Shown: positions 1 to 63,164, numbered from the stretch's first letter. The stretch is 64,000 bases of DNA from an uncultured Candidatus Saccharibacteria bacterium (GCA_964630375.1 CAZVRT010000004.1:8651-72650); one strand, 5' to 3'. Numbers and translations are program-made. The notes: generated by a model not told the origin, from the sequence alone.

Positions 1-295
1 AATAAATGACACAATCGCTGAAGCTTCAAAGTTGGTAAACATGGCAATTCCTCCTGTGGTTTCTCTTGGAATTCTTTTGTTTATTTGGGGAGTCTTGAAA
101 TACATCACGACAGAAAATTCAAAGAAAAAAGCCGAGGCTTCCGCTTTTATTATGTGGGGTATAATTGTTCTTTTAATTATGGGGGTGACTTGGGGTTTTG
201 TTAATATGATTGCTCAATCTGTTGGAGTTTCGGCAACTCAGCAGCCAAACATTGGAACGCAATCAGTAAGTCCTCAGGAGTTAATAAAATATTAA
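1..295 (+). CDS. Small two-TM pilin-like membrane protein, 5'-truncated by the window edge (reading frame open to position 1)
   Basis: Paralogous to the ORFs at 757..1122 and 1128..1370; shares the 'LFIWGVLKY' and 'WG..V' motifs and two hydrophobic helices. The frame stays open upstream of the TTG/ATG at 32/41, so the 5' end is probably outside the window. Confidence 0.6.
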   Translation, partial: INDTIAEASKLVNMAIPPVVSLGILLFIWGVLKYITTENSKKKAEASAFIMWGIIVLLIMGVTWGFVNMIAQSVGVSATQQPNIGTQSVSPQELIKY

Positions 296-296
296 A

Positions 297-676
297 ATGA
301 AAAATTTTTTCACAAAACTAAATATACTAATCGGATTGGTTTTTGCACCATTGGTTTCTTTTGCGCAGCCTTTCAGACCAGAATATGGGGGACTAGGCGG
401 AAGTGGAGGAAGCGAATCTTACGCAGGACTGTTTTAAAAATTATTGAAAACTTAACTGTACTTGGTTCCGGAGTCGCTTTGTTTTTGTTTTTGTGGGGAG
501 TTGTAAAATATTTTACAAACAGTGATAGTGCTGCAAAACGAAGTGAAAGTGTTCAGACTATCACTTATGGATTAATTGCTCTGTTTGTGTTGGTGGCAGT
601 ATGGGGCTTGGTCAAGTTGCTTCAAGAATCATTGTTACCAGGTTCTTCTGGTGGGTTAAATATTCCACAATTCTAG
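297..676 (+). pseudogene. Frameshifted copy of the pilin-like gene: a signal-peptide ORF (297..437, frame 0) and a mature two-TM part (479..676, frame 2)
   Basis: 297..437 encodes MKNFFTKLNILIGLVFAPLVSFAQP..., a signal peptide like that of the gene at 757. 479..676 encodes the paralogous mature domain (FLWGVVKY...WGLVKLL) with no start context of its own and in a different frame. Confidence 0.5.
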
Positions 677-756
677 ATTTGCTTTGTTTTTTAAGTGGTA
701 TAATTAGCTTATGCCGTTTTATCCGGTTTATTGTAATAAAAATTTAAATTGATTTT

Positions 757-1122
757 ATGAAAAAAATTAACAGCAAAAAAGTACTTGGAATTTCTTCAGC
801 ACTTTTTGTTTTGCCTTTCGTAACTTTTGCTCAAAGCAGTGATGGTATTGGGCAATTGATTGGTATGGCAGGAGGTATTATTAGAGCTCTTATTCCGATT
901 GTTATTGGACTTGGAGTTTTGATTTTCCTTTGGGGAGTTTTGCAATATGTTTTGCGTTCAGATGATGCTGGAAAAGCACAAGGACGAACATTCATGCTTT
1001 GGGGAATTATTGCATTGTTTGTGATGGTTTCAGTTTGGGGATTGGTAAACATTTTGAGATCTTCACTACAACTAGACAACGCAACACCAACAGCTCCTGA
1101 TATTCCTCAACACGGACGATAA
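757..1122 (+). CDS. Small secreted/two-TM pilin-like protein (signal peptide + two hydrophobic helices); possibly TrbC/VirB2-like type IV secretion pilin
   Basis: Signal peptide ending ...FAQS, then IPIVIGLGVLIFLWGVLQY and WGIIALFVMVSVWGLV. Tandem paralogs lie alongside. Confidence 0.55.
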   Translation: MKKINSKKVLGISSALFVLPFVTFAQSSDGIGQLIGMAGGIIRALIPIVIGLGVLIFLWGVLQYVLRSDDAGKAQGRTFMLWGIIALFVMVSVWGLVNILRSSLQLDNATPTAPDIPQHGR

Positions 1123-1127
1123 TTTCT

Positions 1128-1370
1128 ATGGATGCATCTGGTTTAGTTTTAAAAATTGCTCAGACGATTATTAACCCGACAATTACACTTTTGTTTGGTG
1201 CAGCTATTTTGTTCTTTGTTTGGGGAATTGTTCAGTACATTAGAGGTGCTGACCAACCTGCTCAAAGAGCAACTGGTGCTAAGCATATGATGTGGGGTCT
1301 TGTTGGAATATTTATAATGATTTCAGCTGTGGCAATTCTAAAAGCATTTACAACCTCAATATTTGGGTAA
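1128..1370 (+). CDS. Small two-TM pilin-like membrane protein (paralog of the gene at 757, no signal peptide)
   Basis: LLFGAAILFFVWGIVQY ... MMWGLVGIFIMISAV. Starts 5 nt after the upstream stop. Confidence 0.55.
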   Translation: MDASGLVLKIAQTIINPTITLLFGAAILFFVWGIVQYIRGADQPAQRATGAKHMMWGLVGIFIMISAVAILKAFTTSIFG

Positions 1371-1430: not shown

Positions 1431-1465
1431 AAAAAAGGCCGGTCACGAAGTGACCGGCCTTTTGC
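1431..1465. terminator. Bidirectional rho-independent terminator
   Basis: AAAAAA-GGCCGGTCAC-GAAG-GTGACCGGCC-TTTT. Perfect 10-bp stem flanked by an A-run and a T-run, lying between convergent genes. Confidence 0.8.
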
Positions 1466-11079: not shown

Positions 11080-11784
11080 ATGAAAAAAGAAGATAAAATC
11101 TTTTGGTTGCAGGCGGGCGGTATTTTTTTAGGTTCAGTTTTTATTTTTGCTGCTTTGGGATTATTGCCGACTAATTTGATTCCGGGGGAATTTATGATTG
11201 CTAAAAACAATCAGAAAGATCGAGTTGATTATTCAAAAGGTGCTTCAATTAGTGATCCTAATTTATTACAGGAAGTTACATATGTTAGAGATAGAAATGG
11301 CAACATTTTACGAAGTCCTGATAACTCAGAAACAGCTCAATCAACTGTTCAAACAACACTTTCAAAACCTTCTAGAATCGTAGTGCCATCAGTTGGAATT
11401 GATACCGTTGTTTTGCAGCCTCAAAGTCCGGCTGTTGATGTTTTGGACCAAGCTTTACAAAGTGGTGCTGTTTATTATCCGGGTTCTGGTTTTATAGAGC
11501 AGGGAAATATGTTTATTTTTGGACATAGTAGCCGTTTGCCTGTTGTTGTAAATCAAGCTTATAAAGCCTTCAATGACATTGAAAAGACTAAAATTGGTGA
11601 TGAAATCTATATCTATTCTGGTGGCCAAAAATATACGTATGTTGTGGAAAGAGTCTATCATGCAGACTCAGAATCAGCTTTTATTGACTTAAGTCGAAGT
11701 GGGCGAAGGCTGACTATTTCAACTTGTGATTCTTTTGGAAAAAAGACAGATCGATGGGTGGTGGATGCGGTGTTTAAGGGGTAA
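11080..11784 (+). CDS. Sortase family transpeptidase
   Basis: N-terminal TM anchor; catalytic His in IFGHSS; TLxTC-type motif RLTISTCDSF with the conserved Cys; Arg near the C-terminus. Confidence 0.75.
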   Translation: MKKEDKIFWLQAGGIFLGSVFIFAALGLLPTNLIPGEFMIAKNNQKDRVDYSKGASISDPNLLQEVTYVRDRNGNILRSPDNSETAQSTVQTTLSKPSRIVVPSVGIDTVVLQPQSPAVDVLDQALQSGAVYYPGSGFIEQGNMFIFGHSSRLPVVVNQAYKAFNDIEKTKIGDEIYIYSGGQKYTYVVERVYHADSESAFIDLSRSGRRLTISTCDSFGKKTDRWVVDAVFKG

Positions 11785-11899
11785 TTTCTGGATTTAAACT
11801 ATTTACAAGAGTGTATATATGTGAACTTGACTTTTTATAAAATTGTGCTAATATATACGCAGAAATAAGCTCACATTCGTTGAGTAAATTTCGTTCTTT

Positions 11900-11923
11900 C
11901 CAAACCAAACCAAACCCAAAAAC
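11900..11923. repeat. (CCAAA)3-CCCAAAAAC pentanucleotide microsatellite immediately upstream of the start codon of the GC-rich gene
   Basis: ccaaaccaaaccaaacccaaaaac at the left boundary of the compositional island. Confidence 0.8.
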
Positions 11924-11928
11924 AAAAA

Positions 11929-12789
11929 ATGAGTAACACCACCACTCCGGCCCCTGCGGCCACCACCGAAGAGCAAATCGCTCAACTCCGCGAATCCGTC
12001 AACCAGATCGCGGAAGCGGTCGCTACCCAGAACAAGTCGAAAGGCTTCTCTCTCAAGCTGAAATGGGGAGTCGCGGCGGGCCTCGTGCTCGCAGTGTTCC
12101 TCGCTCTGTGGGTCTTTCGCCCCACCAGCACTCCGACGGCAACCGCTCCTGTGGCTGCCACGCCTGAAAACGAAGAGCTCAAGGCTCTTCGGGTCGAGCT
12201 GGAAACAGCAAAGGTTGAACGTGAGGTGGCAGCGAAAGCTGCTGCTGAACAGGAAGAAGCCCAGAAGAAAGCCCAAGAGTCCGATGCTCTCCGAAAGGAG
12301 ATGTCGAGCATGAGGGAAGACTTCATGGCAGCCATCGCGGCTGCCTCGGCTTCTTCCAAGGCGACGGTATCCGCTGCTACTTCGAGTACTCCTGTCCAAT
12401 TGGAGGCTTCCACGAATAACGGCAGCAGCATTGCTGCCCAAATCAACGAAGGCCTCCGTCTTCAGTATGGGGTGGCCCATGCACACACCGGGGAAAGCAC
12501 CCCGCCTCCTGGCCTAACTTGGCTGGATCTTGGCGGGGTTCAGATTCCTATTTTCAGGAATCCTCGTATGAACAATCAGTGGGCCTTTGTTACCGGAGAT
12601 TTGCTCGATGGTGTCAAGACCCCTCCTCGTTCTAACGAAGTCCCTCTGCCCGAAGGGCGGACATGGATTCCTTTGACCGCGGCCAACATTCCGCCGACAG
12701 GGGCTATCAACCCTGATGGGCAAAATATGTCCATCGACCGGGCTTTGATGGACGGGGCACTCATTTACGGAACTGTTGCTGTAAGGTAG
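11929..12789 (+). CDS. Hypothetical membrane protein encoded on a high-GC (~58%) island; Thr/Pro/Ala-rich N-terminus, one TM, an Ala/Glu-rich coiled-coil and a C-terminal globular region
   Basis: Long ORF with an ATG start; an AT-rich promoter-like TTGACT-N16-TAATAT lies in the left flank; no Shine-Dalgarno sequence; composition is abruptly different from the flanks. Confidence 0.55.
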   Translation: MSNTTTPAPAATTEEQIAQLRESVNQIAEAVATQNKSKGFSLKLKWGVAAGLVLAVFLALWVFRPTSTPTATAPVAATPENEELKALRVELETAKVEREVAAKAAAEQEEAQKKAQESDALRKEMSSMREDFMAAIAAASASSKATVSAATSSTPVQLEASTNNGSSIAAQINEGLRLQYGVAHAHTGESTPPPGLTWLDLGGVQIPIFRNPRMNNQWAFVTGDLLDGVKTPPRSNEVPLPEGRTWIPLTAANIPPTGAINPDGQNMSIDRALMDGALIYGTVAVR

Positions 12790-12800
12790 CAGTTCTCACG

Positions 12801-12841
12801 AGCTTTTTGTTGGGTTCAATCCCCAGCAAAAAGCTTTTTTC
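12801..12841 (+). terminator. Hairpin terminator with a tRNA T-arm-like loop (minihelix-like) at the right edge of the GC island
   Basis: AGCTTTTTG-TTGGGTTCAATCCCCAG-CAAAAAGCT-TTTTT. The loop has a 'GGGTTCAATCCCC' core matching the tRNA T-stem/loop consensus. Confidence 0.6.
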
Positions 12842-12865
12842 TTTAAAAAGCAGTACCTATTGACT

Positions 12866-12894
12866 TAAATATAAAGATGTAGTATACTTGAAGG
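12866..12894 (+). promoter_or_regulatory. Sigma-70-like promoter for the repeat surface-protein gene
   Basis: TTGACT-17 nt-TATACT (approximate coordinates). Confidence 0.45.
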
Positions 12895-12919
12895 ATAGAT
12901 ATATAATTTAAGAAAAAAC

Positions 12920-14116
12920 ATGAAAAACATTTTATTAGAAACAAGAATAAAAAATATTTTGAAAAACATAACATTTGTTTTTGCCTTGATATTTTTCCCT
13001 GTAATGTCTGTACAAGCATATTCTTCATACACGCCTGATTATTCATCATCTCCAAGTTATTCATATTCTTCATATACCCCTAGCTACTCTTCTGGAAGTA
13101 ATTACAACTACTCTTCATATACTCCTAGTTATTCTAACTACGATTACAATTATTCTTCATACACACCAAGTTATAACTATGGATATAATGACTACAACTA
13201 CTCTTCATATACTCCTAGTTATTCTAACTACGATTACAATTGTTCAGATTGTTACAGCTACGGTGGATATTCTGACTACGGAAGTTACGGATACAACGAC
13301 TACTATGATTACACACCTTCATACGGAGGATGTTCAGGATCAAACTGTGGAGGTTCAACACCTTCATCAGGAGGAGCGTTGTCAGCACTGGGCTTTAACC
13401 TAAACTACAGCGACAATGACACAACTATTATCGACAACAGTAAAACAGATAATAGTGTAAGAATTAATATTCGAAACTCTTCAACTACAAATACAACTAA
13501 TAATCATTGTAGTAATAACACTGGTGACAATAACTGTAATAATACAACTACTATCATCACTTCAAATGACCAAGATAAAGACTATGATCTAGATGTTATC
13601 TGTCGAGTTTCAAAAACTAGAATTCGTGAAGGTGACACAGTAACATATGAAGTAGAAATCCGAGGTGGAAAACCTTCATATAGAATCGAATGGTCAGGTG
13701 ATATTTCAGGAGATGATGAAGAAGAGCGAGTACGTTATAACCGAAGAGGATCATACAGAGTTTCTGTAGAAGTTAGAGATTCAAAAGGTAATCGAGCTTC
13801 TGACGAATGTTCAATTGTTGTTGTTGATAGAGAAGACGAAGATGACGACGATGATGATAGACGAGTTACTGTAACAACAAATACAGGACTAGGAACACCA
13901 ACAGGAAATCTAGCATCTTTGGAATCAGTATTCTTGTCACAAGTCCCATATACAGGACCTGGAGATGTTGCGAAAGTTCTAGGAGTTGTTGCATTGATTG
14001 CAATTTGGAGTACGGCTATCGCTATGTATTTGAAAAAGCAACGAGCTGTAAAATCAGTATCAAATAAAATTGCAGACTTTAAAGAACAAAATAAAAACGC
14101 AAATAAAATTGCTTAA
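12920..14116 (+). CDS. Repeat-rich secreted surface protein: signal peptide, Tyr/Ser-rich (S)SYTPSY(S) repeats, Asn/Thr-rich region, poly-Asp/Glu tract, and a C-terminal 'VPYTG' motif followed by a TM helix and a basic tail (candidate sortase substrate)
   Basis: The repeats are visible in the translation. C-terminus ...SQVPYTGPGDVAKVLGVVALIAIWSTAIAMYLKKQR... A 47-bp perfect direct DNA repeat at 13105..13151 and 13195..13241. Confidence 0.6.
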   Translation: MKNILLETRIKNILKNITFVFALIFFPVMSVQAYSSYTPDYSSSPSYSYSSYTPSYSSGSNYNYSSYTPSYSNYDYNYSSYTPSYNYGYNDYNYSSYTPSYSNYDYNCSDCYSYGGYSDYGSYGYNDYYDYTPSYGGCSGSNCGGSTPSSGGALSALGFNLNYSDNDTTIIDNSKTDNSVRINIRNSSTTNTTNNHCSNNTGDNNCNNTTTIITSNDQDKDYDLDVICRVSKTRIREGDTVTYEVEIRGGKPSYRIEWSGDISGDDEEERVRYNRRGSYRVSVEVRDSKGNRASDECSIVVVDREDEDDDDDDRRVTVTTNTGLGTPTGNLASLESVFLSQVPYTGPGDVAKVLGVVALIAIWSTAIAMYLKKQRAVKSVSNKIADFKEQNKNANKIA

Positions 14117-14212: not shown

Positions 14213-14620
14213 TTAGAAAAAACCAAGCACATGCTTGGTTTTTTCTTTTACGCTCGAAAATTCTTCTTGAGTAATTGTACCAATGTGCCTCTGCAGTCTT
14301 TTGGTGCTAAACATTCTAATTTGATGTAAAGATACGTATTGTATTTCACCGTTAATTTTAATTGGATGGAACCAACTTCCAACTCTTGGAGTTCTGGAGA
14401 TGGATAAACCAATAAAATGTTTATTAGATAATTTTTGTAAAATCAAAACTGGTCTACGAAAATAATCTCCTTTTCCACAAGATTCTTTTGCAATATTTAT
14501 GCCTATTGAACACCACCAAATCTCCGCAATTTTAAATAATAATTCTTTGTTCTTGTATATTTTTAATTCTAGTGTTTTCTTGATTAAATTCCAGTTGTCA
14601 AAATCTTTTTCCATCTCCAT
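14213..14620 (-). CDS. PemK/MazF-family toxin-like protein (Kid/CcdB fold) with an N-terminal extension; no cognate antitoxin gene recognised
   Basis: IWWCSIGINIAKESCGKGDYFRRPVLIL ... YVSLHQIRMFSTKRLQRHIGTITQEEF matches the MazF/PemK pattern Gxi..v.f.P..G.E..g.RPvlvl ... dqirtidk.Rl...iG.l..e. Confidence 0.55.
   Translation of the reverse strand: MEMEKDFDNWNLIKKTLELKIYKNKELLFKIAEIWWCSIGINIAKESCGKGDYFRRPVLILQKLSNKHFIGLSISRTPRVGSWFHPIKINGEIQYVSLHQIRMFSTKRLQRHIGTITQEEFSSVKEKTKHVLGFF
14217..14244. terminator. Bidirectional terminator hairpin (AAAAAA-CCAAGC-ACAT-GCTTGG-TTTTTT)
   Basis: Perfect 6-bp stem flanked by A and T runs. Nearby palindromes: CCGAGACTAGTCTCGG at 14190..14205 and GGGCATGCCC at 14174..14183. 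Confidence 0.6.
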
Positions 14621-21274: not shown

Positions 21275-22102
21275 CTATTCTTTTCGCACCGCTTTATTCC
21301 AAAAATTAAACTTGTCATATTTTTCCGCAAATGGACCAAGTGTTTCTTTCCAATCAGAGACAGGAGTCATGATAGTGTTTTTGATTGTGTGCAAATCCGT
21401 AAAGCCGTGAAATAAGTCATCTTCCTTTGTCGTTTGCTCTATATTTTTAAAATCATGCTCAAAAGGTTCTTCTCCTAAAAATTTATAAATATCATCAATA
21501 ACTTTCTTAGGGTTTGTAGTTAATTCCTCAAAGAAAACAAAATGCATCTTTTTCCCGAAACCTCTTCTTAGAGCGTCTTTTATCGTGTTGTATGCGCTAC
21601 CAACAGGTTGATTGGCTTTCATAAACACCTCGCACCTACCTTCAACAGTTTGAAATTCAACCGGAAAAGCTTTTTCTTGACTGATTTGATGGCCTTTTTT
21701 AGTTTCTTTTCTGTATAGCTTTTCAAAACTAGCCAAAATATCTCTGATGTCTCTTACTGTTATCAATATTTTCACATCATTTTCCACCAAAGATTCTAAA
21801 AGTTCAAATTGTCCAGGCCAACCTCGACATTTATCAAAAATCACAGGCTTCTCTACGTCAGAATAAAAAGACTGAAGCATTGATTTTAATACTCTTAGTT
21901 TTGCAGGTTCATTTCTGACAGCTTTAAATTCTTGAATATTGTTCCAAGTGTTTCGTGTGTTTATTATCATTTGTAAAACACCTGAAGTAGCTGTCGCATG
22001 AAAGCGAGGATTTTGATTTAGAATATTGCAAAGCAAAGTAGAACCGCTTCGTGGTAATCCGGAGATAAAATAAAATTTTTTTGGATTTATATTATTTTTC
22101 AT
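21275..22102 (-). CDS. PAPS-dependent sulfotransferase family protein (Stf0/Sulfotransfer_3-like)
   Basis: 5'-PSB motif FISGLPRSGSTLL; 3'-PB-like ITVRDIRDILASFEKLY. The likely start is the internal Met (MKNNINP). Confidence 0.65.
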   Translation of the reverse strand: MKNNINPKKFYFISGLPRSGSTLLCNILNQNPRFHATATSGVLQMIINTRNTWNNIQEFKAVRNEPAKLRVLKSMLQSFYSDVEKPVIFDKCRGWPGQFELLESLVENDVKILITVRDIRDILASFEKLYRKETKKGHQISQEKAFPVEFQTVEGRCEVFMKANQPVGSAYNTIKDALRRGFGKKMHFVFFEELTTNPKKVIDDIYKFLGEEPFEHDFKNIEQTTKEDDLFHGFTDLHTIKNTIMTPVSDWKETLGPFAEKYDKFNFWNKAVRKE

Positions 22103-22185
22103 AAATAATTTTTTAATAATTTGTATTTGCAAACTGTGTATAAATACTGCGGGGGTGGGGGGTAACTCAATGTATAATACACTTC

Positions 22186-23904
22186 ATGAATAAATACATC
22201 AAACTAACAGGTGTTGGCCTTATGCTGTACCTTGCAATCATTATCAAAGAAACACCCGTAGCATATGCAGCTATAATCACAGATTGTTCTACCGCCTTGG
22301 ATCAAGAAAATGAAACTTATGAGCTATCCGCCAACACATCAAACAACTGTGTAATTGCCGCCAACAACATTACCTTGGATGGGAAGGGGTTTGAATTGAA
22401 TGGATACATTCAGACTATGAGCAATTCTTTTGAAGTTAAAAATATAACAATTAATTCATCTTACTATTCTGTGTATGCGACTGGCATAGGAGCTGATGCT
22501 ATATTTACAGATGTGAATATGTCCGGGTACACTTATGGGATATTTGGAGATATTTCTATTTCAGGTTCAACAATCAACGGAAATTTACATGAAAATAGAT
22601 CCTTAATCTCTCAGGGTGGCATTAATATTGTTGATTCGGTTGTTAAATTGTTTAAAGTATCAGGTGATGGTGTGAATATTACAAACTCTACAGTGGGTAA
22701 TGGGTATGAAGAAAGTCCATCATATGGTTATACTTACAATTCAAGTGTTTTGGCAAATGAAATATCAATTAATGATTCCACCATTAATGCATATATTCGA
22801 AATGATTACTATACTAATGGTACATGGCTTGCTGATACTATATTAATCACCAATTCTGCTGTAGTTGGAGGTTTAAGGGCTAAAATAACAGAGATTAACG
22901 ACTCTTCGGTCTCGGGATATATTAGTATTAGGAGTGGTGATTACTATAGTAGCGACGGTAGTTTAAAAATAATTGGTTCTACTATTACAGGATTAAAAGT
23001 TGGGGGATTGATAGAATCCGTAAATACTCCTTTAATAATAACAAACTCTACTGTTTCTTTTGTTGGAGGGTATGGTATATGGGCTACAAACAATAATAAT
23101 ATTTATTTAACTGATTCATTAGTTTCAGCTAAAATTAGTAATGACATAGATAATGTCCACATCCTCAACACCCCACCCTCCCTAACAGTAACCCCTCTAT
23201 CCCTAGAAATAGACGAAGATGAAGTATTCAATCCACAAACAGGTACAGTAACAGCCTTTGATCAAATAGGACCAGATCTTGTAGATGTATCAGACAATAT
23301 ACAAGTAACAGGTACTGTAGAGGTAACACCAGGGGAATATGAACTGATATACAGCATAGAAGATCAACCGCTAATATATACAGTTAAAGGAGAAGAGGTA
23401 ATTGTAGGTCCTAACACTTCAACAACCACCAGAACCATCACAAGACTATCTGGAGGTAGTAATAACAACGAAGAACCCCAACCTTCTGAAGAACCATCTC
23501 GTCGTTCTAGCTCAAGAAGACAAGTACCACAATCTCTATCTTCTAACACCCAACTAACACAAATAATCACACAATACGCACAATTCCTTAAAACCCTACT
23601 ATCCATAGGCATAGAACTACCAAAACAGGTAACAGATATACTAAACACAATACCTAACACCACAACACCTAATACAACCACTACAACATTCACTAGAGAC
23701 TTAACACTAGGATCTACAGGTGAAGATGTATCTACCTTACAACAACTACTAATCTCTAAAGGTTACTCTATACCACAAGGTGCTACAGGATACTTTGGTA
23801 CACAAACACAACAGGCAGTGGCACAGTATCAGAGGGATAATGGGATAGAGCCTGCGGAGGGGTGGTTTGGACCTGTTACAAGAGATGTGGTGAATAGTTT
23901 TTAG
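22186..23904 (+). CDS. Large secreted protein: signal peptide, Asn/Ser/Thr-rich parallel-beta-helix-like repeats, Ser/Arg linker, C-terminal peptidoglycan-binding (PG_binding_1-like) domain
   Basis: N-terminal signal peptide; repeated (I/V)TNSTV-type motifs; C-terminus TGEDVSTLQQLLISKGYSIPQGATGYFGTQTQQAVAQYQRDNGIEPAEGWFGPVT. Confidence 0.6.
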   Translation: MNKYIKLTGVGLMLYLAIIIKETPVAYAAIITDCSTALDQENETYELSANTSNNCVIAANNITLDGKGFELNGYIQTMSNSFEVKNITINSSYYSVYATGIGADAIFTDVNMSGYTYGIFGDISISGSTINGNLHENRSLISQGGINIVDSVVKLFKVSGDGVNITNSTVGNGYEESPSYGYTYNSSVLANEISINDSTINAYIRNDYYTNGTWLADTILITNSAVVGGLRAKITEINDSSVSGYISIRSGDYYSSDGSLKIIGSTITGLKVGGLIESVNTPLIITNSTVSFVGGYGIWATNNNNIYLTDSLVSAKISNDIDNVHILNTPPSLTVTPLSLEIDEDEVFNPQTGTVTAFDQIGPDLVDVSDNIQVTGTVEVTPGEYELIYSIEDQPLIYTVKGEEVIVGPNTSTTTRTITRLSGGSNNNEEPQPSEEPSRRSSSRRQVPQSLSSNTQLTQIITQYAQFLKTLLSIGIELPKQVTDILNTIPNTTTPNTTTTTFTRDLTLGSTGEDVSTLQQLLISKGYSIPQGATGYFGTQTQQAVAQYQRDNGIEPAEGWFGPVTRDVVNSF

Positions 23905-43389: not shown

Positions 43390-45207
43390 ATGAAAAACAA
43401 AATCAAAAATAAAATCACCGCACTTATACTTTTACTTACCTTAACAATCCTTTCTTACTCACCTTTAATAATCAAACCTCAAACTGCAGAAGCAGCTGGG
43501 ACTTGGGTGTGGGAGGAGTTGACTGGGGCTGGACAAAGAAACTGGATGGGCATTACCTCATCAGATGATGGAATGAATCTGGCCGCTATTACTCAAAACG
43601 GATATATCTACACTTCGACAGATGGTGGTGATAATTGGGTTGAAAGGACTGGTGCTGGTTCAAGAGAGTGGATGGATATTGCTTCATCGGCTGATGGTTC
43701 TAAATTATTTGCTGTTCCACAATATGAACTGGTTATATGGATTTCAACTAACTTTGGTTTAACGTGGGACTCTGTGCTGCTTGATAATAATCCAGAGATA
43801 GAGTCTTTGGATCTTCAGTCTATCGCAGTTTCTGCTAATGGAGAAAAAATTGTAGTTATAAGTTCTGAGACTTATGGCGGAGGTTCGTATATTTCAAATA
43901 ACGCAGGTGAATCTTGGTCGGAAATAGAGGATTTTGATTACGATTATTTAGAACTTACTCCTTCAGTTTCTATGTCGTCAGACGGAATGAAAATAATAGC
44001 TGCTGCGCATCCTGATGGAGACTCTTCTAGTCATAGAGGGTATTTTATAACAACTAATGGTGGGGAGAGTTGGAATTATTCTGTGTCAAATGATCCGTAT
44101 CCGCACTATATACGAGCAAAATATTCAAAAGATGGTAATACGATATTGATGGCGGGACCAGAGGTTGGTTATGTTAGGGTGTCCGACAATAACGGAATCT
44201 CATGGAGAGATGTTGAAGGAGAAGTGTTTTGTGTGGAGGATGAGTGGGAGAATGAGACTTGTTATAATGATATAATTGGAGCTGATATTGCTTTATCATC
44301 AAATGCTCAAATACAAGTATTACTTTTGAACGAAGTCGGTCTTAGAGATGTACTAAATCCAGAACTGGATTTTTTAATTTCAACAGATGGAGGTCTGACT
44401 TTTTCAGCACATGAGACTGGATATCATTATCCTTATAATTCCAACATGTCTCAAAACATGATAACAATCTCTGCCCCCGGCACCACCATATACGCTGCAG
44501 AACCCTCAGGTCACATCTGGAAAGGAACATACATCCCCGAAACCTTCACCCTCTCCTTCAACACCCAAGGAGCATCTCCCATACCAGACATAACAGAAGA
44601 TGAAGGAACCTCTGTAACACTCCCACCCTCACCAACATACGAAGGATACACCTTCTTAAACTGGAACACACAAGCAGATGGTGAAGGAGACTCATACCAA
44701 CCAGGTGACTCATTCACACTAAACTCTGATACAACACTGTATGCTATATGGGAGGAAAACCCTATTGAAGAACAACCAGAAGAACAAACCCCCTCAGAAG
44801 AACCCTCACGTCGTTCTTCTTCACGTCGCTCAGTCCCTTCTAGCCTCCAAGCTAAAAACAACACCCTAAACTCTATTGTACTCCAATACAAAGACTCCCT
44901 AACAACACTACACACTCTAGGTATCATATCTCTCCCACAAAACATACTAGATATACTAAACATACAACCAACCAATACAACAAATACAACCTTCCTAAGA
45001 GACCTAACCCTAGGTGACACAGGTACAGATGTATCTACCTTGCAATCTATCCTAATATCTAAAGGATACTCTATACCAGCAGGACCAACAGGATACTTTG
45101 GTGAACAGACAAGACAAGCGGTGGCACAGTTCCAGAGAGACAACAACATTACACCTGCAGAGGGGTGGTTTGGGGTGGTGACTAGGGGGAAGATGAGGGG
45201 GTTTTAA
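43390..45207 (+). CDS. Secreted BNR-repeat (sialidase/Ycf48-like beta-propeller) protein with a Listeria-Bacteroides 'Flg_new' repeat domain and a C-terminal peptidoglycan-binding domain
   Basis: Signal peptide; BNR motifs STDGGDNW, TNGGESW, SDNNGISW, STDGGLTF; EGYTFLNWNTQADGEGDSYQPGDSFTLNSDTTLYAIWE; C-terminus TGTDVSTLQSILISKGYSIPAGPTGYFGEQTRQAVAQFQRDN. Confidence 0.6.
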   Translation: MKNKIKNKITALILLLTLTILSYSPLIIKPQTAEAAGTWVWEELTGAGQRNWMGITSSDDGMNLAAITQNGYIYTSTDGGDNWVERTGAGSREWMDIASSADGSKLFAVPQYELVIWISTNFGLTWDSVLLDNNPEIESLDLQSIAVSANGEKIVVISSETYGGGSYISNNAGESWSEIEDFDYDYLELTPSVSMSSDGMKIIAAAHPDGDSSSHRGYFITTNGGESWNYSVSNDPYPHYIRAKYSKDGNTILMAGPEVGYVRVSDNNGISWRDVEGEVFCVEDEWENETCYNDIIGADIALSSNAQIQVLLLNEVGLRDVLNPELDFLISTDGGLTFSAHETGYHYPYNSNMSQNMITISAPGTTIYAAEPSGHIWKGTYIPETFTLSFNTQGASPIPDITEDEGTSVTLPPSPTYEGYTFLNWNTQADGEGDSYQPGDSFTLNSDTTLYAIWEENPIEEQPEEQTPSEEPSRRSSSRRSVPSSLQAKNNTLNSIVLQYKDSLTTLHTLGIISLPQNILDILNIQPTNTTNTTFLRDLTLGDTGTDVSTLQSILISKGYSIPAGPTGYFGEQTRQAVAQFQRDNNITPAEGWFGVVTRGKMRGF

Positions 45208-56579: not shown

Positions 56580-57332
56580 TTAAAATATCTGTCGTATTTT
56601 CAAAAGGACTCTTTTAGTAATGAAAAAAGCTGGTACTTTTCCGTAGTTATTTTTCCATGATTGTCGCAATTCTTGCCAACCTTTGATTCTTTGAGAAAAA
56701 CTTTTTGAGCTATGTCCCTTGTGTCTCATAATAGTAAAAACTTTTGGAATGTATTTCATTTTTGTATCGTCTGATTTTATTAAGCGAATCATAAAGTCGT
56801 AATCGCTGGCAATAGAAAAATTAGTCGAATAATATCCGTATTTATTGTGCAAATCTCTTTTATAAAAAAACGCTGGATGTGGAGGACACCAACCTCTAAA
56901 AATATTCTTTTTTGAAAATTGACCTGATTTCCATTTTCTTTTTATTTTGTTTGTGTCGTTACGATCAACAATAACTATGTCTCCATAACACACATCACAA
57001 TTTGTTTTTTCAAAAGTATCTACTACTTCTTGTATAAGATTTGGTGAGATATAAAAATCGTCGGAGTTAAGAACTGCCACTATATCTCCGGTTGCTATTT
57101 TGACACCATTATTTGTGGCGTCATAAATACCGAGGTCGGATTGAGAATGCAACTTAACCAGATTTGTGGTGGAATCTTGATATTTTTTAATCATTTGAAC
57201 CGTTTCGTCTGTCGACAGATTATCAATGAAAACATGTTCGATATTTCCGTATGTTTGTTTTTGGACACTTGCCAAAGTGTCGCCAAGAGTTTGAGAGCTA
57301 TTATATGTTGGTGTGATAATTGAAACTCTCAT
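56580..57332 (-). CDS. Family 2 glycosyltransferase (GT-A fold)
   Basis: MRVSIITPTYNSSQTLGDTLASVQKQTY; DxD-type motif LNSDDFY. Confidence 0.8.
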   Translation of the reverse strand: MRVSIITPTYNSSQTLGDTLASVQKQTYGNIEHVFIDNLSTDETVQMIKKYQDSTTNLVKLHSQSDLGIYDATNNGVKIATGDIVAVLNSDDFYISPNLIQEVVDTFEKTNCDVCYGDIVIVDRNDTNKIKRKWKSGQFSKKNIFRGWCPPHPAFFYKRDLHNKYGYYSTNFSIASDYDFMIRLIKSDDTKMKYIPKVFTIMRHKGHSSKSFSQRIKGWQELRQSWKNNYGKVPAFFITKRVLLKIRQIF

Positions 57333-59110: not shown

Positions 59111-59842
59111 ATGAAAGTTTGTGTTGTAACACTCCATAAATCTGCTTCCATGTTCTTGCATCGATATTTCCAAGCTTATGCCAATTCCAAAAATTTGCCT
59201 TATTTTTCAGCAAATTCTGAGCCAGCAAATGAAGATGGCTGGAAACATCTCATCAATGGAGATTATGTAGTTTGCCCAGTTCGTATAAAAGACAGCCTTG
59301 ATTTATTACCGTCAGATGCTCAGTACATAATTCACTTCCGTAACCCAATTGATATTTTGATATCGGAGTATTTTTCTTTTGGTTGGACTCATCCTGTTAT
59401 ATCAGAAAAGCAAAAAGTTCGTAGAGAAAGTATTCAAAGTCAGACTATTGACGAGTATTGTATTGCGCATGCTCAGTCTTTACATAAAAGATATGGTCTT
59501 CTGATTTCCTTATATCAATCATCTTCTCAAGTGATCCTTTCTGATTATTCTTTGATGAGGCAAAGTTTTAAAAAATGGAATAAATCTATACTTGAAAGTA
59601 TTGAGCAAGAAGATAGTCAGAAAATATCTGAATTTTTATATAGTCAATTTAAAGGAGATTTTAGGTTTTTTAGGAATTTGTTTAGAAATGTAAACTCACA
59701 TCGTCGAGACGGACGAGACAATCAAGCTCGTGTTTATCTTAAGCCAGAAACTGTTGGGGTTTTGGAAAGTGAGCTTCAGGATATTATTGGATTTTATAAT
59801 GACATGCATCAGAGATTGCAAAAAAAATATGCCAAAACCTGA
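59111..59842 (+). CDS. Sulfotransferase-like protein (Stf0/Sulfotransfer_3-like), tentative
   Basis: N-terminal VVTLHKSASMFL (P-loop-like 5'-PSB position) and FRNPIDILISEY (3'-PB-like). The start is taken at the internal Met (MKVCVV) to avoid overlapping the divergent gene. Confidence 0.4.
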   Translation: MKVCVVTLHKSASMFLHRYFQAYANSKNLPYFSANSEPANEDGWKHLINGDYVVCPVRIKDSLDLLPSDAQYIIHFRNPIDILISEYFSFGWTHPVISEKQKVRRESIQSQTIDEYCIAHAQSLHKRYGLLISLYQSSSQVILSDYSLMRQSFKKWNKSILESIEQEDSQKISEFLYSQFKGDFRFFRNLFRNVNSHRRDGRDNQARVYLKPETVGVLESELQDIIGFYNDMHQRLQKKYAKT

Positions 59843-60713
59843 TTTCTTTATAATCGGTGCGCCAAAGTGCGGAACAACTTCGCTCAGTAAATATTTAAGG
59901 TCGCACCCAAATGTTTGTATGTCTGCATTAAAAGAGCCAAATTATTTTGCATTCGATTTGCAGTTACCTGGACCAAATTCTCTTGAAGAGTATTTGGGTC
60001 TGTTTTCAAATTGTTCTGGCGATTCATTGTGGGGAGAAGCATCAACTCATTATTTGTGTTCTCAGGTAGCTGTGCCGGAAATTTTAAAACTTAATCCCAA
60101 TGCCAAGTTTATTGTTATGCTTCGTAATCCAGTTGAGATGGCGGAATCTTTATTTTTTGAGGCACGACACCACTTGGCTGAAAAAGAACGCAAATTTGAA
60201 AGAGCATGGAAAGAACGTGAAAGCAGGTCTCTTACTATAAGATACGATTATGTGTGTGATGTTGGAAATCAGTTGGAGAGGTTATACAACACTGTTTCTT
60301 CTAGGGACTTAGTACATGTTATTCATTTTGATAATTTTATAAAAAATACTGCTGTTGAATATCGCAAGGTTCTTAATTTTTTAAATTTGCCTGATGATGG
60401 TAAAATAGACTTCACTCAGTTCAATAAAAGAAAAGATATGAAAAGTCGTTTGGTCGGAGACATTTTAAGAGCTTTAGAGTCAAAGAGATTAAGGTATTAT
60501 TCTAAGAAGGTAAAAGATATTTTTGGCTTATCCCAGTGGCCGCTTCTGGGTTCTGTATGTAAGCGCATAAAAGTTTACAACCTGAAACGCACAGATGGTG
60601 TTACAACAATTCCAGATTATTTACAAATCGAATTATATGAACACTTTTTGCCGACAGTTAACAAAGTAAAGAATCTGACAAGCATAGATTTATATGGCAG
60701 AAAAAGAAATTAA
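59829..60713 (+). CDS. PAPS-dependent sulfotransferase (Sulfotransfer_1-like)
   Basis: 5'-PSB motif DFFIIGAPKCGTTSL; 3'-PB region VMLRNPVEMAESLF. 14-nt overlap with the upstream gene. Confidence 0.75.
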   Translation: MPKPDFFIIGAPKCGTTSLSKYLRSHPNVCMSALKEPNYFAFDLQLPGPNSLEEYLGLFSNCSGDSLWGEASTHYLCSQVAVPEILKLNPNAKFIVMLRNPVEMAESLFFEARHHLAEKERKFERAWKERESRSLTIRYDYVCDVGNQLERLYNTVSSRDLVHVIHFDNFIKNTAVEYRKVLNFLNLPDDGKIDFTQFNKRKDMKSRLVGDILRALESKRLRYYSKKVKDIFGLSQWPLLGSVCKRIKVYNLKRTDGVTTIPDYLQIELYEHFLPTVNKVKNLTSIDLYGRKRN

Positions 60714-61617
60714 AAAACCAAACTTTTTTATAATCGGCGCACCAAAATGTGGCACCACTTCTTTGAGTGAATATTTGCGTTTACATCCTGATATTTATTT
60801 TTCACAACCCAAAGAACCGATGTACTTTTCGTCGGATATACCAAATACCCGAGTTTATAGATATACATCATTGGATGACTATTTACAAAAATGTTTTGAC
60901 GGATCGTCAGGATATAAGTTTGTTGGTGAAGGATCAACCAGATATCTTACTTCAGAAGTTGCTGTTCCTGAGATTTTAAAGATGGACCCAAGCGCAAAGT
61001 TTATAGTTATGCTTCGCAATCCGGTCTATTTATGCCACTCACTTTATTATCAGTATCTGAAAGACGATAATGAGGATGCCGAAAGTTTTGAAAAAGCTTG
61101 GCGTCTTCAAGATGAAAGAAACAAAGGAAATGATTTACCAAAGAGAGTTGAATGTCCTGCTTTATTGCAATATAGACAAAGATGTATGCTCGGGGAGCAG
61201 TTAGAGAGATTGTTTACACAAGTGTCAAATCCTAAACAGGTACTTATTATATCATTTAATGATTTTATCTCTGATACGGAAGTCGTCTATAAAAAGGTGC
61301 TGAATTTTTTGGGTGCCGATTATGATGGACAGCAAGAATTTCCAATTCATAATGAATACGGCAAAATTAGGAGTAAATTCTTTGAAAGAGTTTTGTCTAT
61401 TCCTAAGCATTCTTTTTTACGACCAATTTCTAAAAAGCTAAAGAAGTTTTTGAATATTCAACACTGGGCGTTTTTTGTTTGGATGAATAAAATGAATTAC
61501 AGAAAAATAAAGAAGGAGCCGATGAGTAAAGAATTGCGTGAAGAACTAACCGAATATTTTCGTTCAGACGTAGAGAAAGTAAAACGTCTAACGGGAATAG
61601 ATTTATATGAAAATTAG
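60694..61617 (+). CDS. PAPS-dependent sulfotransferase (Sulfotransfer_1-like), paralog of the upstream gene
   Basis: NFFIIGAPKCGTTSLSEYL; VMLRNPVYLCHSLYY. 20-nt overlap with the upstream gene. Confidence 0.75.
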   Translation: MAEKEIKKPNFFIIGAPKCGTTSLSEYLRLHPDIYFSQPKEPMYFSSDIPNTRVYRYTSLDDYLQKCFDGSSGYKFVGEGSTRYLTSEVAVPEILKMDPSAKFIVMLRNPVYLCHSLYYQYLKDDNEDAESFEKAWRLQDERNKGNDLPKRVECPALLQYRQRCMLGEQLERLFTQVSNPKQVLIISFNDFISDTEVVYKKVLNFLGADYDGQQEFPIHNEYGKIRSKFFERVLSIPKHSFLRPISKKLKKFLNIQHWAFFVWMNKMNYRKIKKEPMSKELREELTEYFRSDVEKVKRLTGIDLYEN

Positions 61618-62515
61618 CGTCATAACAACATCTTTTAATCATGGTCAATTTTTGGAAGCGACATTACGTTCTGTGGGGGCGCAGACTTATCGGAATGTGG
61701 AACATGTTGTGATTGATGGAGGTTCTTCGGATAATACGATTGAGATTTTAGAAAAATATCAGTCGCAATATAATTTGAAATGGATTTCAGAGCTGGACAA
61801 TGGTCAGACTCATGCTTTGAACAAAGGGTTGGCGATGATTAGCGGAGACATTGTTGTGTGGCTAAATTCTGATGACGTTTTTCTTTATAAAGACACTCTT
61901 GAACAAGTTGCTCGAGTTTTTGAATCAGGAGAAACTGATGTTTTGATGGGTGATATGGCTTTTTTGGATAAAGAGGGAAGTATTATTCAGTTTTTCGGAT
62001 ATTCAAAGTTTTCATATCAAAAATTTTTGAGTGGTTTGCGAAGTGTTGGTCAGCCTTCTGTTTTTATTAAAAGCGATATTCTCAAGAAGAATAAATTTAG
62101 AGAAGATTTACATTACGCTTTTGATTTTGAATTTTGGTTGAGAATTTTGAGAGGTGATATAAAAATTAAATGCACACGTTTTGTTTTATCAGGATCAAGA
62201 ATGTATCCGGGAACTAAAAGTTCTGACGAAAGTAAATTGTCCGAAGAAAAGAATCAAATATTTCAAGAGTGTAATTTAAATCCACGACCTTTCTCAAGGC
62301 TCGACAGAAAAATTGACAATTTTATTTCACTGAAAGTTAGGGGATTGTGGCTGCTTATTAAGCACAGATATTTTTTACGCTCACCAATGACTTCGGATTT
62401 GGTTAAATATAAAAAATTTCCAATGGATATTATTTATCAGATTTTCCGAAAAATGCGCTCAAACTACGAGCAGTATTGGAGTAAATATTTTCCAACCAGT
62501 TTTTGGAGTGATTAG
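61607..62515 (+). CDS. Family 2 glycosyltransferase
   Basis: MKISVITTSFNHGQFLEATLRSVGAQTY; DxD LNSDDVF. 11-nt overlap with the upstream gene. Confidence 0.8.
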   Translation: MKISVITTSFNHGQFLEATLRSVGAQTYRNVEHVVIDGGSSDNTIEILEKYQSQYNLKWISELDNGQTHALNKGLAMISGDIVVWLNSDDVFLYKDTLEQVARVFESGETDVLMGDMAFLDKEGSIIQFFGYSKFSYQKFLSGLRSVGQPSVFIKSDILKKNKFREDLHYAFDFEFWLRILRGDIKIKCTRFVLSGSRMYPGTKSSDESKLSEEKNQIFQECNLNPRPFSRLDRKIDNFISLKVRGLWLLIKHRYFLRSPMTSDLVKYKKFPMDIIYQIFRKMRSNYEQYWSKYFPTSFWSD

Positions 62516-63163
62516 ATGATTTGTCTTCAAACTTATATCCAAACATTTTAATAGTATTTTTTGTAATTTAGCTATATGCATTTTAGATTCATAATCGTAG
62601 TAATATGAATAATGTTTATGCTTGCTTGTGTTTAAGTGTGGCAGACTTATTCTTTCTAAACCAATCACATCACAAATTGTGTCAAAATCTGGTTGTATGG
62701 TTTCAATTTTTCCAACAAAATCCAGAATTAGTTTCCCATTTTCGTCAAATAAGTAACAATCATATTTGTTATCAAATAAGTTTGGGTGAAATATACATTT
62801 TTTAAAATTTCCTAATTGGTCTACCTTTTGAGCTTTGTATGGGTCGTAAATTCGGACTTGAGGATTTTGCTTATAATAACTGTATTTAGATACAGCAATA
62901 TCCCAAGGATTTCGGACAAAGGTAAATTTGAAATAAGTATTCCATATTTCCGAGGAAACCATTTTCTTTTGTTCGATAATCGGTAGGTGGTGAGTCCATG
63001 ATCCGATATAATGTTTTGGGATGGAAAATAGTTCTGCCTCTTCGCAGGTAAGCTTCTGAGCGTGTTCAATTAATCCCTTTTTTAAAAACACATCCCGAAT
63101 GGATGTTCCCCCTGTTTTGGGGATGTGAATAAAGATAAATTTATGTTTATGTGATATCATCAT
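62459..63163 (-). CDS. Carbohydrate sulfotransferase-like protein (Sulfotransfer_2-like)
   Basis: FIFIHIPKTGGTS P-loop typical of the carbohydrate sulfotransferase family. Start taken at the internal MMISHKHKF. Confidence 0.5.
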   Translation of the reverse strand: MMISHKHKFIFIHIPKTGGTSIRDVFLKKGLIEHAQKLTCEEAELFSIPKHYIGSWTHHLPIIEQKKMVSSEIWNTYFKFTFVRNPWDIAVSKYSYYKQNPQVRIYDPYKAQKVDQLGNFKKCIFHPNLFDNKYDCYLFDENGKLILDFVGKIETIQPDFDTICDVIGLERISLPHLNTSKHKHYSYYYDYESKMHIAKLQKILLKCLDISLKTNHLITPKTGWKIFTPILLVV

Positions 63164-63164
63164 G

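What the first reader, a model, noticed from the sequence alone, without database searches (positions are those of the whole stretch)
1..1370. Tandem array of four paralogous small pilin-like two-TM proteins at the contig edge
Four consecutive genes (one 5'-truncated by the window) encode ~80 to 120-aa proteins. They share a signal peptide ending FAQ(S/P), two hydrophobic helices and conserved 'L(F/I)(L/I/V)WG(V/I)(L/V)(K/Q)Y' and 'WG(I/L)(I/V)' motifs. This architecture matches TrbC/VirB2-type conjugative/T4SS pilins and the 'T4SS pilin' family described in CPR bacteria (inference from motif memory, not a search result). Tandem paralog arrays of pilins suggest antigenic or functional diversification of a surface filament used for cell-cell contact.
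Basis: partly seen in the sequence, partly recalled or inferred. Interest (0 to 1): 0.55.

Follow-up and report, generated by a model that had tools for sequence, protein, structure and literature searches.

The report
VirB2-like pilin gene array, Paceibacteria
The start of this window holds the last four genes of a conserved six-gene row of small VirB2/TrbC-like "T4SS pilin" membrane proteins from an ultrasmall Patescibacteria (CPR) bacterium, a kind of array already described in the literature, here with local twists (one gene is a three-in-one fusion, one is frameshifted, and no secretion motor lies nearby).

Summary
The four homologous ORFs are real. Three pass Pfam's own threshold for PF18895 T4SS_pilin. 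Their orthologues in other species are 47-78% identical, with dN/dS 0.08-0.47.

Several details of the observation are wrong:
- The window-cut gene is the third module of a 342-aa protein made of three fused pilin modules (P0138, same 92-kb contig), so the window edge is not the contig edge.
- Gene 2 is split by a frameshift at a T4A5 run.
- Gene 4 has no signal peptide.

In about 100 related Paceibacteria loci the array has 5-6 genes in a fixed order. The best cross-genome hit falls at the same array position in 187 of 204 cases. These are therefore old, specialised paralogues, not an antigenic-variation array.

A sugar-type solute-binding-protein gene sits directly upstream in 69 of 73 loci. 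No VirB4, VirB6 or VirD4 lies within 62 kb downstream or 16.7 kb upstream.

Such VirB2-like arrays in Patescibacteria are published (Wang 2023; Quiñonero-Coronel 2025).

Verdict: a new member of a known kind, of modest interest. The tri-module fusion and the solute-binding-protein coupling are the new details.

The parts
1..295 (+). 3' end (97 codons plus TAA) of the array's position-3 gene. It encodes the third of three fused pilin-like two-helix modules of a 342-aa protein.
   Evidence: The translation is identical to the C-terminus of P0138, which is on the same 92,007-bp contig. It is orthologous to module 3 of the 351-364-aa proteins in L003, L006, L008 and L088. The fragment alone scores 17-18 bits for PF18895, below the cutoff. 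The full-length orthologue scores 51.7 bits.
297..437 (+). Gene 2 (array position 4), N-terminal part: signal peptide (..VSFAQ) plus Gly-rich linker. It ends at TAA 435-437, out of frame with the rest of the gene.
   Evidence: ORF list and sequence. The position-4 proteins of L089 and L091 (127 aa) carry a homologous signal peptide in one continuous frame.
432..440 (+). T4A5 homopolymer run where the reading frame of gene 2 breaks. One added base would restore a 126-aa protein.
   Evidence: Read directly from the sequence. The repaired protein scores 33.0 bits for PF18895. No independent assembly covers the site.
438..676 (+). Gene 2 (array position 4), two-helix pilin-like module in the shifted frame. 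The first canonical start codon is at 479, inside helix 1.
   Evidence: 64-70% identical to the position-4 proteins of L003, L006 and L088. dN/dS is 0.08-0.11. Family HMM E = 5e-19.
757..1122 (+). Gene 3 (array position 5), 121 aa: signal peptide plus helical hairpin. Helix 2 (LFVMVSVWGLV) is invariant in 31 orthologues.
   Evidence: PF18895 at 28.7 bits. 472 homologues, nearly all PF18895. Alignment A1. AlphaFold2 model with helices 6-24, 30-66 and 70-103 and core pLDDT 86-92.
1128..1370 (+). Gene 4 (array position 6), 80 aa: pilin-like hairpin without a signal peptide.
   Evidence: PF18895 at 34.1 bits. 76-78% identical to the 81-aa orthologues. Sub-threshold match to NCBIfam NF045849, the Mycoplasma ICE pilin-like conjugal transfer protein (26.1 vs 40 bits).
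1433..1463 (.). 14-bp-stem G+C-rich hairpin between the array and the convergent 168-aa ORF. It is the likely end of the array's transcript.
   Evidence: Terminator-like site in the scan and the sequence.

Best explanation
These genes are the distal four of a conserved six-gene set of VirB2/TrbC-superfamily 'T4SS pilin' proteins of a Paceibacteria (Patescibacteria/CPR) bacterium.

Each module is a membrane hairpin of two long hydrophobic helices joined by a short basic loop. That loop is inferred to face the cytoplasm, with both ends outside.

How the proteins are probably made (all inferred):
- Positions 3, 4 and 5 are made with a Sec signal peptide, probably cut after ..F-A, which leaves an N-terminal Gln.
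- Position 6 inserts without a signal peptide.
- Position 3 is a covalent chain of three such modules joined by disordered external linkers.

The most likely function is inferred from the experimentally essential six-pilin array of Southlakia epibionticum. The membrane pool of these proteins would be extracted and assembled, by a monoderm-type VirB4 machine encoded elsewhere in the genome, into a heteromeric pilus-like filament or wall-spanning conduit used for contact or exchange with a host cell.

The fixed order and old divergence of the six genes imply non-redundant structural roles, for example major, minor, base or tip subunits, rather than interchangeable variants.

Shown here: family membership, hairpin architecture, the conserved six-gene order, purifying selection, and the lack of linkage to a motor.

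Inferred: signal-peptide cleavage, topology, polymerisation, dependence on VirB4, and the host-contact role.
For: - PF18895 is above the gathering score for g2 (repaired), g3 and g4.
- The position-2 gene of the same array in L006 passes PF04956 TrbC/VirB2 (31.5 vs 27.9 bits).
- hhalign between all six array positions gives 95.6-100% probability.
- The only PDB hit of the g3 family profile is TraM, the VirB2-type pilin of pKM101 (8cw4). It is weak, at E = 0.22.
- The AlphaFold2 model of g3 is a helical hairpin. The model of P0138 shows three hairpins.
- 5-6-gene arrays occur in essentially all of about 100 related loci.
- Positional orthology holds for 187 of 204 best hits.
- dN/dS is 0.08-0.47.
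- Wang 2023 (PMC10633639) reports six PF18895 genes, SEML1_0014-0019, that are essential and sit in the T4SS cluster.
- Quiñonero-Coronel 2025 (PMC12102498) reports 441 VirB2-like arrays of 2-11 genes in 383 assemblies.
- That paper's Table S1 lists VirB4 as present in two genomes that carry this same array (L035 and L068).
Against: - No VirB4, VirB6, VirD4, PrgI or type IV pilus gene lies in the 62 kb downstream.
- None lies in the 16.7 kb upstream in the syntenic contig L087.
- None is found among all ORFs of at least 480 aa in 166 related loci.
- VirB4 in this particular genome was not looked for and could not be.
- The window's own proteins do not hit PF04956 at all.
- Foldseek against the PDB gave no significant match and no pilin match.
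- No pilus made of these proteins has ever been seen in any Patescibacteria.
- The tight coupling to a solute-binding-protein gene is not explained by the pilus model.
Confidence: 0.6

Rival explanations
1. The proteins are T4SS-associated but do not build an extended pilus. They would form a short, static membrane or cell-wall-spanning channel or stalk of the monoderm T4SS. The tri-module protein would act as a pre-assembled piece of that ring or tube.
For: - Monoderm MPF-FATA systems generally lack pili (PMC12102498; PMC10633639).
- g4 and other array members resemble the 80-aa Mycoplasma ICE 'pilin-like conjugal transfer protein' NF045849.
- Helix 2 of g3 is invariant in 31 orthologues, which fits tight fixed packing.
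- Covalent 2x and 3x fusions exist.
Against: There is no structural or localisation evidence either way. The tri-module model has low confidence (pLDDT 53.5, pTM 0.27), so its packing says nothing. The same absence of linked machinery applies here as for the best explanation.
Confidence: 0.2
2. The array is not part of a T4SS. Together with the co-transcribed membrane-anchored sugar-type solute-binding protein, the small two-helix proteins would form a membrane complex for uptake or sensing of a carbohydrate.
For: - The solute-binding-protein gene is directly upstream on the same strand in 69 of 73 loci, with a typical gap of -4 to +9 nt.
- It matches SBP_bac_1 and SBP_bac_8 and sugar-binding proteins in the PDB (4r9f, E = 1e-8).
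- No T4SS motor is nearby.
- Position-2 proteins give faint matches to the TRAP small subunit DctQ (E about 0.002-0.003, below threshold).
Against: - Family membership in PF18895, and in PF04956 for position 2.
- In Saccharibacteria the homologous array lies inside the T4SS cluster without any solute-binding protein.
- No ABC ATPase or permease is nearby.
- No known transporter is built from such hairpins.
Confidence: 0.1
3. This is the first reader's reading: recently duplicated pilin paralogues that diversify for antigenic or phase variation of a surface filament.
For: - Gene 2 is broken at a homopolymer run.
- Module 1 of the position-3 protein is 65% identical to g3, which hints at some exchange between paralogues.
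- Positions 3-5 occasionally cross-match between genomes.
- Antigenic variation is the analogy offered in PMC12102498.
Against: - Each position is an orthologue conserved across 34+ species-level genomes.
- dN/dS is well below 1.
- Only 14-34-nt imperfect DNA repeats link the genes.
- T4 and A5 runs are too short for efficient slipped-strand switching (general knowledge).
- The array has the same size and order throughout the lineage.
Confidence: 0.07

Closest known systems
VirB2-like pilin arrays of Patescibacteria: SEML1_0014-0019 of Southlakia epibionticum (Wang et al. 2023, Cell) and the 441 arrays catalogued by Quiñonero-Coronel et al. 2025 (Microb Genom)
   Same: - Tandem row of PF18895 genes of about 80-190 aa, six in S. 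epibionticum and six here in relatives.
- Low identity between paralogues.
- Some members also match TrbC/VirB2 PF04956.
- Monoderm CPR host.
- Chromosomal location, with no relaxase context.
   Different: - Here the array is not in or near the T4SS cluster.
- It is fused into an operon-like unit with a sugar-type solute-binding-protein gene, downstream of gyrA and a methyltransferase gene.
- One member is a covalent fusion of two or three pilin modules.
- The published survey found arrays mainly in Microgenomatia and Saccharimonadia. This one is in Paceibacteria.
TrbC/VirB2 conjugative pilins of diderm T4SS (Pfam PF04956; e.g. VirB2 of Agrobacterium, TraM of pKM101, TrbC of RP4)
   Same: - Small protein with a signal peptide and a hairpin of two hydrophobic helices joined by a short basic loop.
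- One array member in a relative passes the PF04956 threshold.
- A weak profile hit to TraM (8cw4).
   Different: - The window's own genes do not reach PF04956.
- The host is monoderm.
- There are six distinct paralogues instead of one major pilin.
- There is no adjacent virB operon.
- Polymerisation, lipid binding and cyclisation are unknown.
Mbov_0395 family pilin-like conjugal transfer protein of Mycoplasma ICEs (NCBIfam NF045849)
   Same: An 80-aa two-helix protein without a signal peptide, from a monoderm MPF-FATA-type system. g4 aligns over positions 8-79 of the 80-position model (E = 5e-6).
   Different: - All scores (23-39 bits) are below the 40-bit cutoff.
- It is a single gene in a mobile element, not a chromosomal six-gene array.
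Multiple VirB2 paralogues in Bartonella and Anaplasma T4SS loci
   Same: Several divergent pilin genes in tandem.
   Different: Those are thought to serve antigenic variation and lie in the T4SS locus. Here the paralogues are ancient and fixed in position.

Membership tests
Pfam PF18895 T4SS_pilin | Score at or above the gathering cutoff (26.6 bits) | tested here: met
   g2 (repaired) 33.0, g3 28.7 and g4 34.1 bits. The g1 fragment alone scores 17-18 bits, below the cutoff. Its full-length protein P0138 carries a precomputed PF18895 hit, and the L006 orthologue scores 51.7 bits.
Pfam PF18895 T4SS_pilin | Two-helix hydrophobic hairpin of about 70 residues | tested here: met
   Hydropathy analysis. 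AlphaFold2 helices 30-66 and 70-103 in g3 with pLDDT 86-92. Three such hairpins in P0138 (low overall confidence).
TrbC/VirB2 pilin (PF04956) | Score at or above the gathering cutoff (27.9 bits) | tested here: not met
   None of the four window proteins hits PF04956 at E <= 1. The threshold is met only by the position-2 gene of the same array in relative L006 (31.5 bits). L003 and L089 are sub-threshold at 24-26 bits.
TrbC/VirB2 pilin (PF04956) | Encoded with the mating-pair-formation genes (VirB4, VirB6 and others) | tested here: not met
   None in the 64-kb window. None in the 16.7 kb upstream in L087. None among the large ORFs of 166 related loci.
TrbC/VirB2 pilin (PF04956) | Fold matches solved VirB2-type pilins | tested here: inconclusive
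TrbC/VirB2 pilin (PF04956) | Signal peptide cleaved, and the mature pilin polymerises with phospholipid into a pilus | not testable with these tools
   Signal-peptide-like N-termini are seen in g2, g3 and P0138, and none in g4. Cleavage and assembly need experiments.
Patescibacteria VirB2-like pilin array (Wang 2023; Quiñonero-Coronel 2025) | Two or more PF18895/PF04956 genes in tandem in a Patescibacteria genome | tested here: met
   Four in the window and six in syntenic relatives. Relatives are named Paceibacterota, Parcubacteria, Nomurabacteria, Yonathbacteria and similar. Three of them are classed as Paceibacteria in Table S1 of PMC12102498.
Patescibacteria VirB2-like pilin array (Wang 2023; Quiñonero-Coronel 2025) | Located within about 20 genes of virB4 (true for 1135 of 1948 assemblies in the survey) | tested here: not met
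   Searches found no virB4 nearby. The survey itself reports many unlinked cases, so this feature is not obligatory.
Patescibacteria VirB2-like pilin array (Wang 2023; Quiñonero-Coronel 2025) | A VirB4-type T4SS is present in the same genome | not tested
Table S1 of PMC12102498 lists VirB4 'Yes' for two genomes with the same array (L035, L068) and 'No' for one draft genome (L075).
Mbov_0395 pilin-like conjugal transfer protein (NCBIfam NF045849) | Score at or above the 40-bit cutoff | tested here: not met
   g4 scores 26.1 bits. The L006 array members score 22.6-38.9 bits.
Type IV pilus (T4P) pilins | Class III signal peptide (G|F/M-T-L-x-E) and a single N-terminal hydrophobic helix | tested here: not met
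   No such motif is present in the sequences, and there are two helices per module. No T4P pilin family appears among the Pfam hits. No PilB, PilC or PilM genes are in the window. The only PilM_2 match is FtsA in L087.

The most novel reading that the evidence does not exclude
In this Paceibacteria lineage the pilin set has left the T4SS locus. It has become a seven-gene unit with a membrane-anchored sugar-binding protein and includes a covalent 'tri-pilin'. The unit would build a heteromeric filament or conduit whose receptor or tip is the sugar-binding protein. That would be a host-glycan-targeted contact or uptake organelle, possibly assembled independently of VirB4.
Probability: 0.1. Interest if true: 0.7.

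Novelty: new member of a known kind. Interest (0 to 1): 0.3.

Why it matters
How ultrasmall CPR bacteria attach to and feed from host cells is an open problem. The only genetic evidence so far is that a six-gene VirB2-like pilin array is essential in one Saccharibacterium.

This locus shows that a comparable six-gene set, with fixed gene order and strong conservation, exists across a different and very large class, Paceibacteria. Here it is detached from the secretion motor. That argues the six proteins have distinct structural jobs rather than being variable copies.

The fused two- and three-module pilins and the near-obligatory sugar-binding-protein partner give concrete handles for structural modelling and for experiments on what these "pilins" actually build. 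For example, they point to which subunits are neighbours and what the structure might bind.

Full report
**What is in the sequence**

Positions 1-1370 carry four consecutive coding regions on the + strand.
- g1 runs from the window edge to 295.
- g2 occupies 297-676.
- g3 is 757-1122 (121 aa).
- g4 is 1128-1370 (80 aa).
- A 14-bp-stem hairpin at 1433-1463 separates g4 from a convergent 168-aa ORF.

A family HMM built from relatives matches all four regions (E 5e-19 to 4e-40) and nothing else in the 64-kb window. Pfam PF18895 'T4SS_pilin' is above its curated cutoff of 26.6 bits for g2 after frameshift repair (33.0), g3 (28.7) and g4 (34.1). The g1 fragment is below it at 17-18 bits. The modules are 28-39% identical to each other. 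All four share [FI][LIV]WG[VI][LV][KQ]Y in helix 1, and all but g2 share a WG at the start of helix 2.

**Corrections to the observation**

- *g1 is not a small protein.* Its 97 residues are identical to the C-terminus of P0138. It consists of a signal peptide (..ISFAQ) followed by three pilin-like modules joined by polar linkers of about 30-40 residues. AlphaFold2 gives three helical hairpins (29-64/68-102, 135-171/175-210, 246-281/285-318) with disordered linkers. Overall confidence is low (pLDDT 53.5), so only the secondary structure is used. The window start is therefore not the contig edge.
- *g2 is interrupted.* The signal-peptide part (297-437) stops at TAA 435-437. The two-helix module is in another frame, which is open from 296 to 676 but has no ATG/GTG/TTG before 479, inside helix 1. 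One extra base in the T4A5 run at 432-440 restores a 126-aa protein.
- *The g2 break is recent, tolerated or an error.* Relatives L089 and L091 have a 127-aa position-4 protein with a signal peptide in one frame. The closest relatives (L003, L006, L088) have a 94-107-aa version with no signal peptide. The module itself shows dN/dS of 0.08-0.11 against its orthologues. No second assembly covers the site.
- *g4 has no signal peptide.* The same holds for all its 80-81-aa orthologues.

**Organism and context**

The rest of the window is housekeeping: RbfA, IF-2, ClpB, sortase, ThrRS, DnaE, RNase HII, NusB, RNase III, SMC, RNase R, RpoB/C, DnaG, RpoD, MurJ, LepA, LeuRS, TsaD, and glycosyl- and sulfotransferases. 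It also holds seven tRNAs. G+C is 36%.

g3 has 472 homologues, almost all flagged PF18895. They come from MAGs named Paceibacterota, Parcubacteria, Pacebacteria, Taylorbacteria and similar. The nearest is 76% identical. The source genome is not among the GTDB species representatives.

**The array is a conserved six-gene set**

In syntenic contigs, which share the downstream RbfA, IF-2, DUF4446, aminotransferase, protease and ClpB genes, there are six PF18895 genes in a row. Their sizes are about 140, 120, 350, 95, 125 and 81 aa.

Across 80 species-representative loci and 24 metagenome loci the array has mostly 5-6 genes on one strand. In 34 genomes with six genes, the best hit of each protein in another genome lies at the same array position in 187 of 204 cases. 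Positions 1, 2 and 6 do so in 34 of 34 cases each.

The window genes map as follows:
- g1 is module 3 of position 3 (47-50% identical to its orthologues).
- g2 is position 4 (64-71%).
- g3 is position 5 (68-77%).
- g4 is position 6 (76-78%).

dN/dS against orthologues is 0.08-0.47, with dS near saturation, so these are rough values. Only short imperfect DNA repeats around the WG codons link the genes. Profile-profile comparison shows all six positions are homologous (95.6-100%), with subgroups {1,2} and {3,4,5,6}.

These are ancient, individually conserved paralogues. This argues against recent diversification or antigenic variation and for distinct roles. One closer pair exists: module 1 of the position-3 protein is 65% identical to g3. 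Position 3 is single-module in most genomes and 2x or 3x in the clade nearest the window.

**Link to VirB2/TrbC**

- The position-2 protein of L006 passes Pfam's TrbC/VirB2 (PF04956) threshold (31.5 vs 27.9 bits). Those of L003 and L089 are just below it.
- The g3 family profile finds a single PDB sequence, TraM of pKM101, a VirB2-type pilin (8cw4). The E-value is a non-significant 0.22.
- g4 and other members give sub-threshold matches to NCBIfam NF045849, the 80-aa 'pilin-like conjugal transfer protein' of Mycoplasma ICEs. This is notable because the Patescibacteria T4SS is related to the monoderm MPF-FATA class (PMC12102498).
- AlphaFold2 of g3 gives a signal-peptide helix plus a hairpin of two helices of about 35 residues with core pLDDT of 86-92.
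- Foldseek against the PDB was uninformative, and other libraries were unavailable.

**Machinery**

No VirB4, VirB6, VirD4, PrgI or type IV pilus genes occur in the 62 kb downstream.

The 16.7 kb upstream of the array in the closest long syntenic contig (L087, Ga0172380_10000007) encodes the solute-binding protein, a methyltransferase, GyrA, a metallo-beta-lactamase-fold protein, S1, Pth, signal peptidase I, a HisRS-like protein, FtsA, FtsZ and TrxB. None of the ORFs of at least 480 aa in 166 related loci is a T4SS ATPase.

Table S1 of PMC12102498 lists VirB4 as present in two genomes carrying this same array (Athens0714_16 = L035; Yonathbacteria CG_4_8_14_3_um_filter_46_25 = L068) and absent from one draft (GW2011_GWA1_40_21 = L075). 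A motor elsewhere in the genome is therefore plausible, but it is untested for this organism.

**An unexpected constant partner**

A 435-aa protein is encoded directly upstream on the same strand in 69 of 73 loci that have an upstream gene. It has an N-terminal membrane anchor and an SBP_bac_1/SBP_bac_8 domain. Its best PDB relatives are sugar-binding proteins (4r9f, E = 1e-8). The gap to the array is usually -4 to +9 nt. No ABC permease or ATPase accompanies it. The pilus model does not explain this, and it is the basis of the main non-T4SS rival.

**Comparison with the literature**

Wang et al. 2023 (PMC10633639) found six PF18895 genes (SEML1_0014-0019) inside the T4SS cluster of Southlakia epibionticum. 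All were essential in Tn-seq, and two of them also match PF04956.

Quiñonero-Coronel et al. 2025 (PMC12102498) catalogued VirB2-like proteins in 1,948 assemblies, near virB4 in 1,135 of them. They also found 441 arrays of 2-11 genes in 383 assemblies, with a mean of 25% and a maximum of 54% identity. They offered antigenic variation as an analogy. A 2025 T4SS review speculates that the array builds a pilus-like conduit for exchange with the host.

The finding is therefore a further example of a described kind. I did not find the following three features in those papers:
- the strict positional orthology;
- the multi-module fusions (the survey paper uses 'fused/fusion' only for VirB3-VirB4);
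- the solute-binding-protein coupling ('solute-binding' does not occur in that paper's text).

**Mechanism and confidence**

The most likely account (confidence about 0.6) is as follows. The proteins are Sec- or YidC-inserted membrane hairpins of the VirB2 superfamily. A VirB4-type machine encoded elsewhere assembles them into a heteromeric pilus-like or wall-spanning structure for host contact or exchange.

- *Shown:* family membership and architecture.
- *Inferred:* cleavage (by the -3/-1 rule it more probably falls after ..F-A than after Q), topology (positive-inside rule), assembly and function.

The rivals are a static channel component (0.2), a solute-binding-protein-associated membrane complex unrelated to T4SS (0.1), and antigenic or phase variation (0.07).

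**Verdict**

This is a new member of a known kind, with interest about 0.3.

Noticed in passing
window 297-676 (break at 432-440): Gene 2 of the array is split by a one-base frameshift at a T4A5 run. Its two-helix part is still under strong purifying selection against its orthologues (dN/dS about 0.1). The closest relatives have lost the signal-peptide part altogether, while more distant ones keep it in frame.
   Followed up: partly
upstream of the window; L006 6429-7736, L003 6465-7772: A membrane-anchored, sugar-type solute-binding protein gene (435 aa) directly precedes the pilin array in 69 of 73 related loci, often overlapping it by 4 nt. No ABC permease or ATPase is nearby.
   Followed up: partly
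P0138 (source contig, upstream of window 1); L003 8587-9642; L006 8525-9589; L089 1435-2151: The position-3 gene of the array encodes two or three covalently fused pilin modules in the clade around this genome. I found no mention of fused VirB2-like pilins in the papers read.
   Followed up: partly
window 11080-14116: A sortase gene is followed by two Pfam-less ORFs. The 398-aa one has a signal peptide, Ser/Tyr-rich repeats (SSYTP...) and a C-terminal VPYTG motif followed by a hydrophobic stretch and KKQR. This looks like a sortase substrate with a non-canonical sorting motif.
   Followed up: partly
window 21275-22132, 56580-57332, 59730-63211: An unusual concentration of sulfotransferase-family genes (four) sits with GT2 glycosyltransferases. 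This suggests synthesis of a sulfated surface glycan in a CPR bacterium.
   Followed up: no
window 22186-23904 and 43390-45207: Two secreted proteins have different N-terminal parts (one with BNR/Sortilin and Listeria-Bacteroides repeats) but nearly identical C-terminal PG_binding_1 domains.
   Followed up: no
window 14213-14620 (-): A MazF/PemK-type toxin ORF (135 aa). No antitoxin was looked for.
   Followed up: no
L001/L002 (Logan SRR16797977 contig, 2171 bp): An independent assembly of the same organism (g4 and its neighbour are 100% identical) breaks 110 bp upstream of g4, inside g3. This may be because g3 and module 1 of the position-3 gene share long near-identical stretches.
   Followed up: no
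L087 12850-13398: Signal peptidase I (LepB), the enzyme expected to process the array's signal peptides, lies about 7 kb upstream of the array in the syntenic relative, next to FtsA and FtsZ.
   Followed up: no
L053 6278-7924 (-): In one relative a 548-aa protein with a weak lysozyme-like SLT_3 (PF18896) match lies just downstream of the array. It is the only T4SS-flavoured (VirB1-like) neighbour seen in about 100 loci.
   Followed up: no
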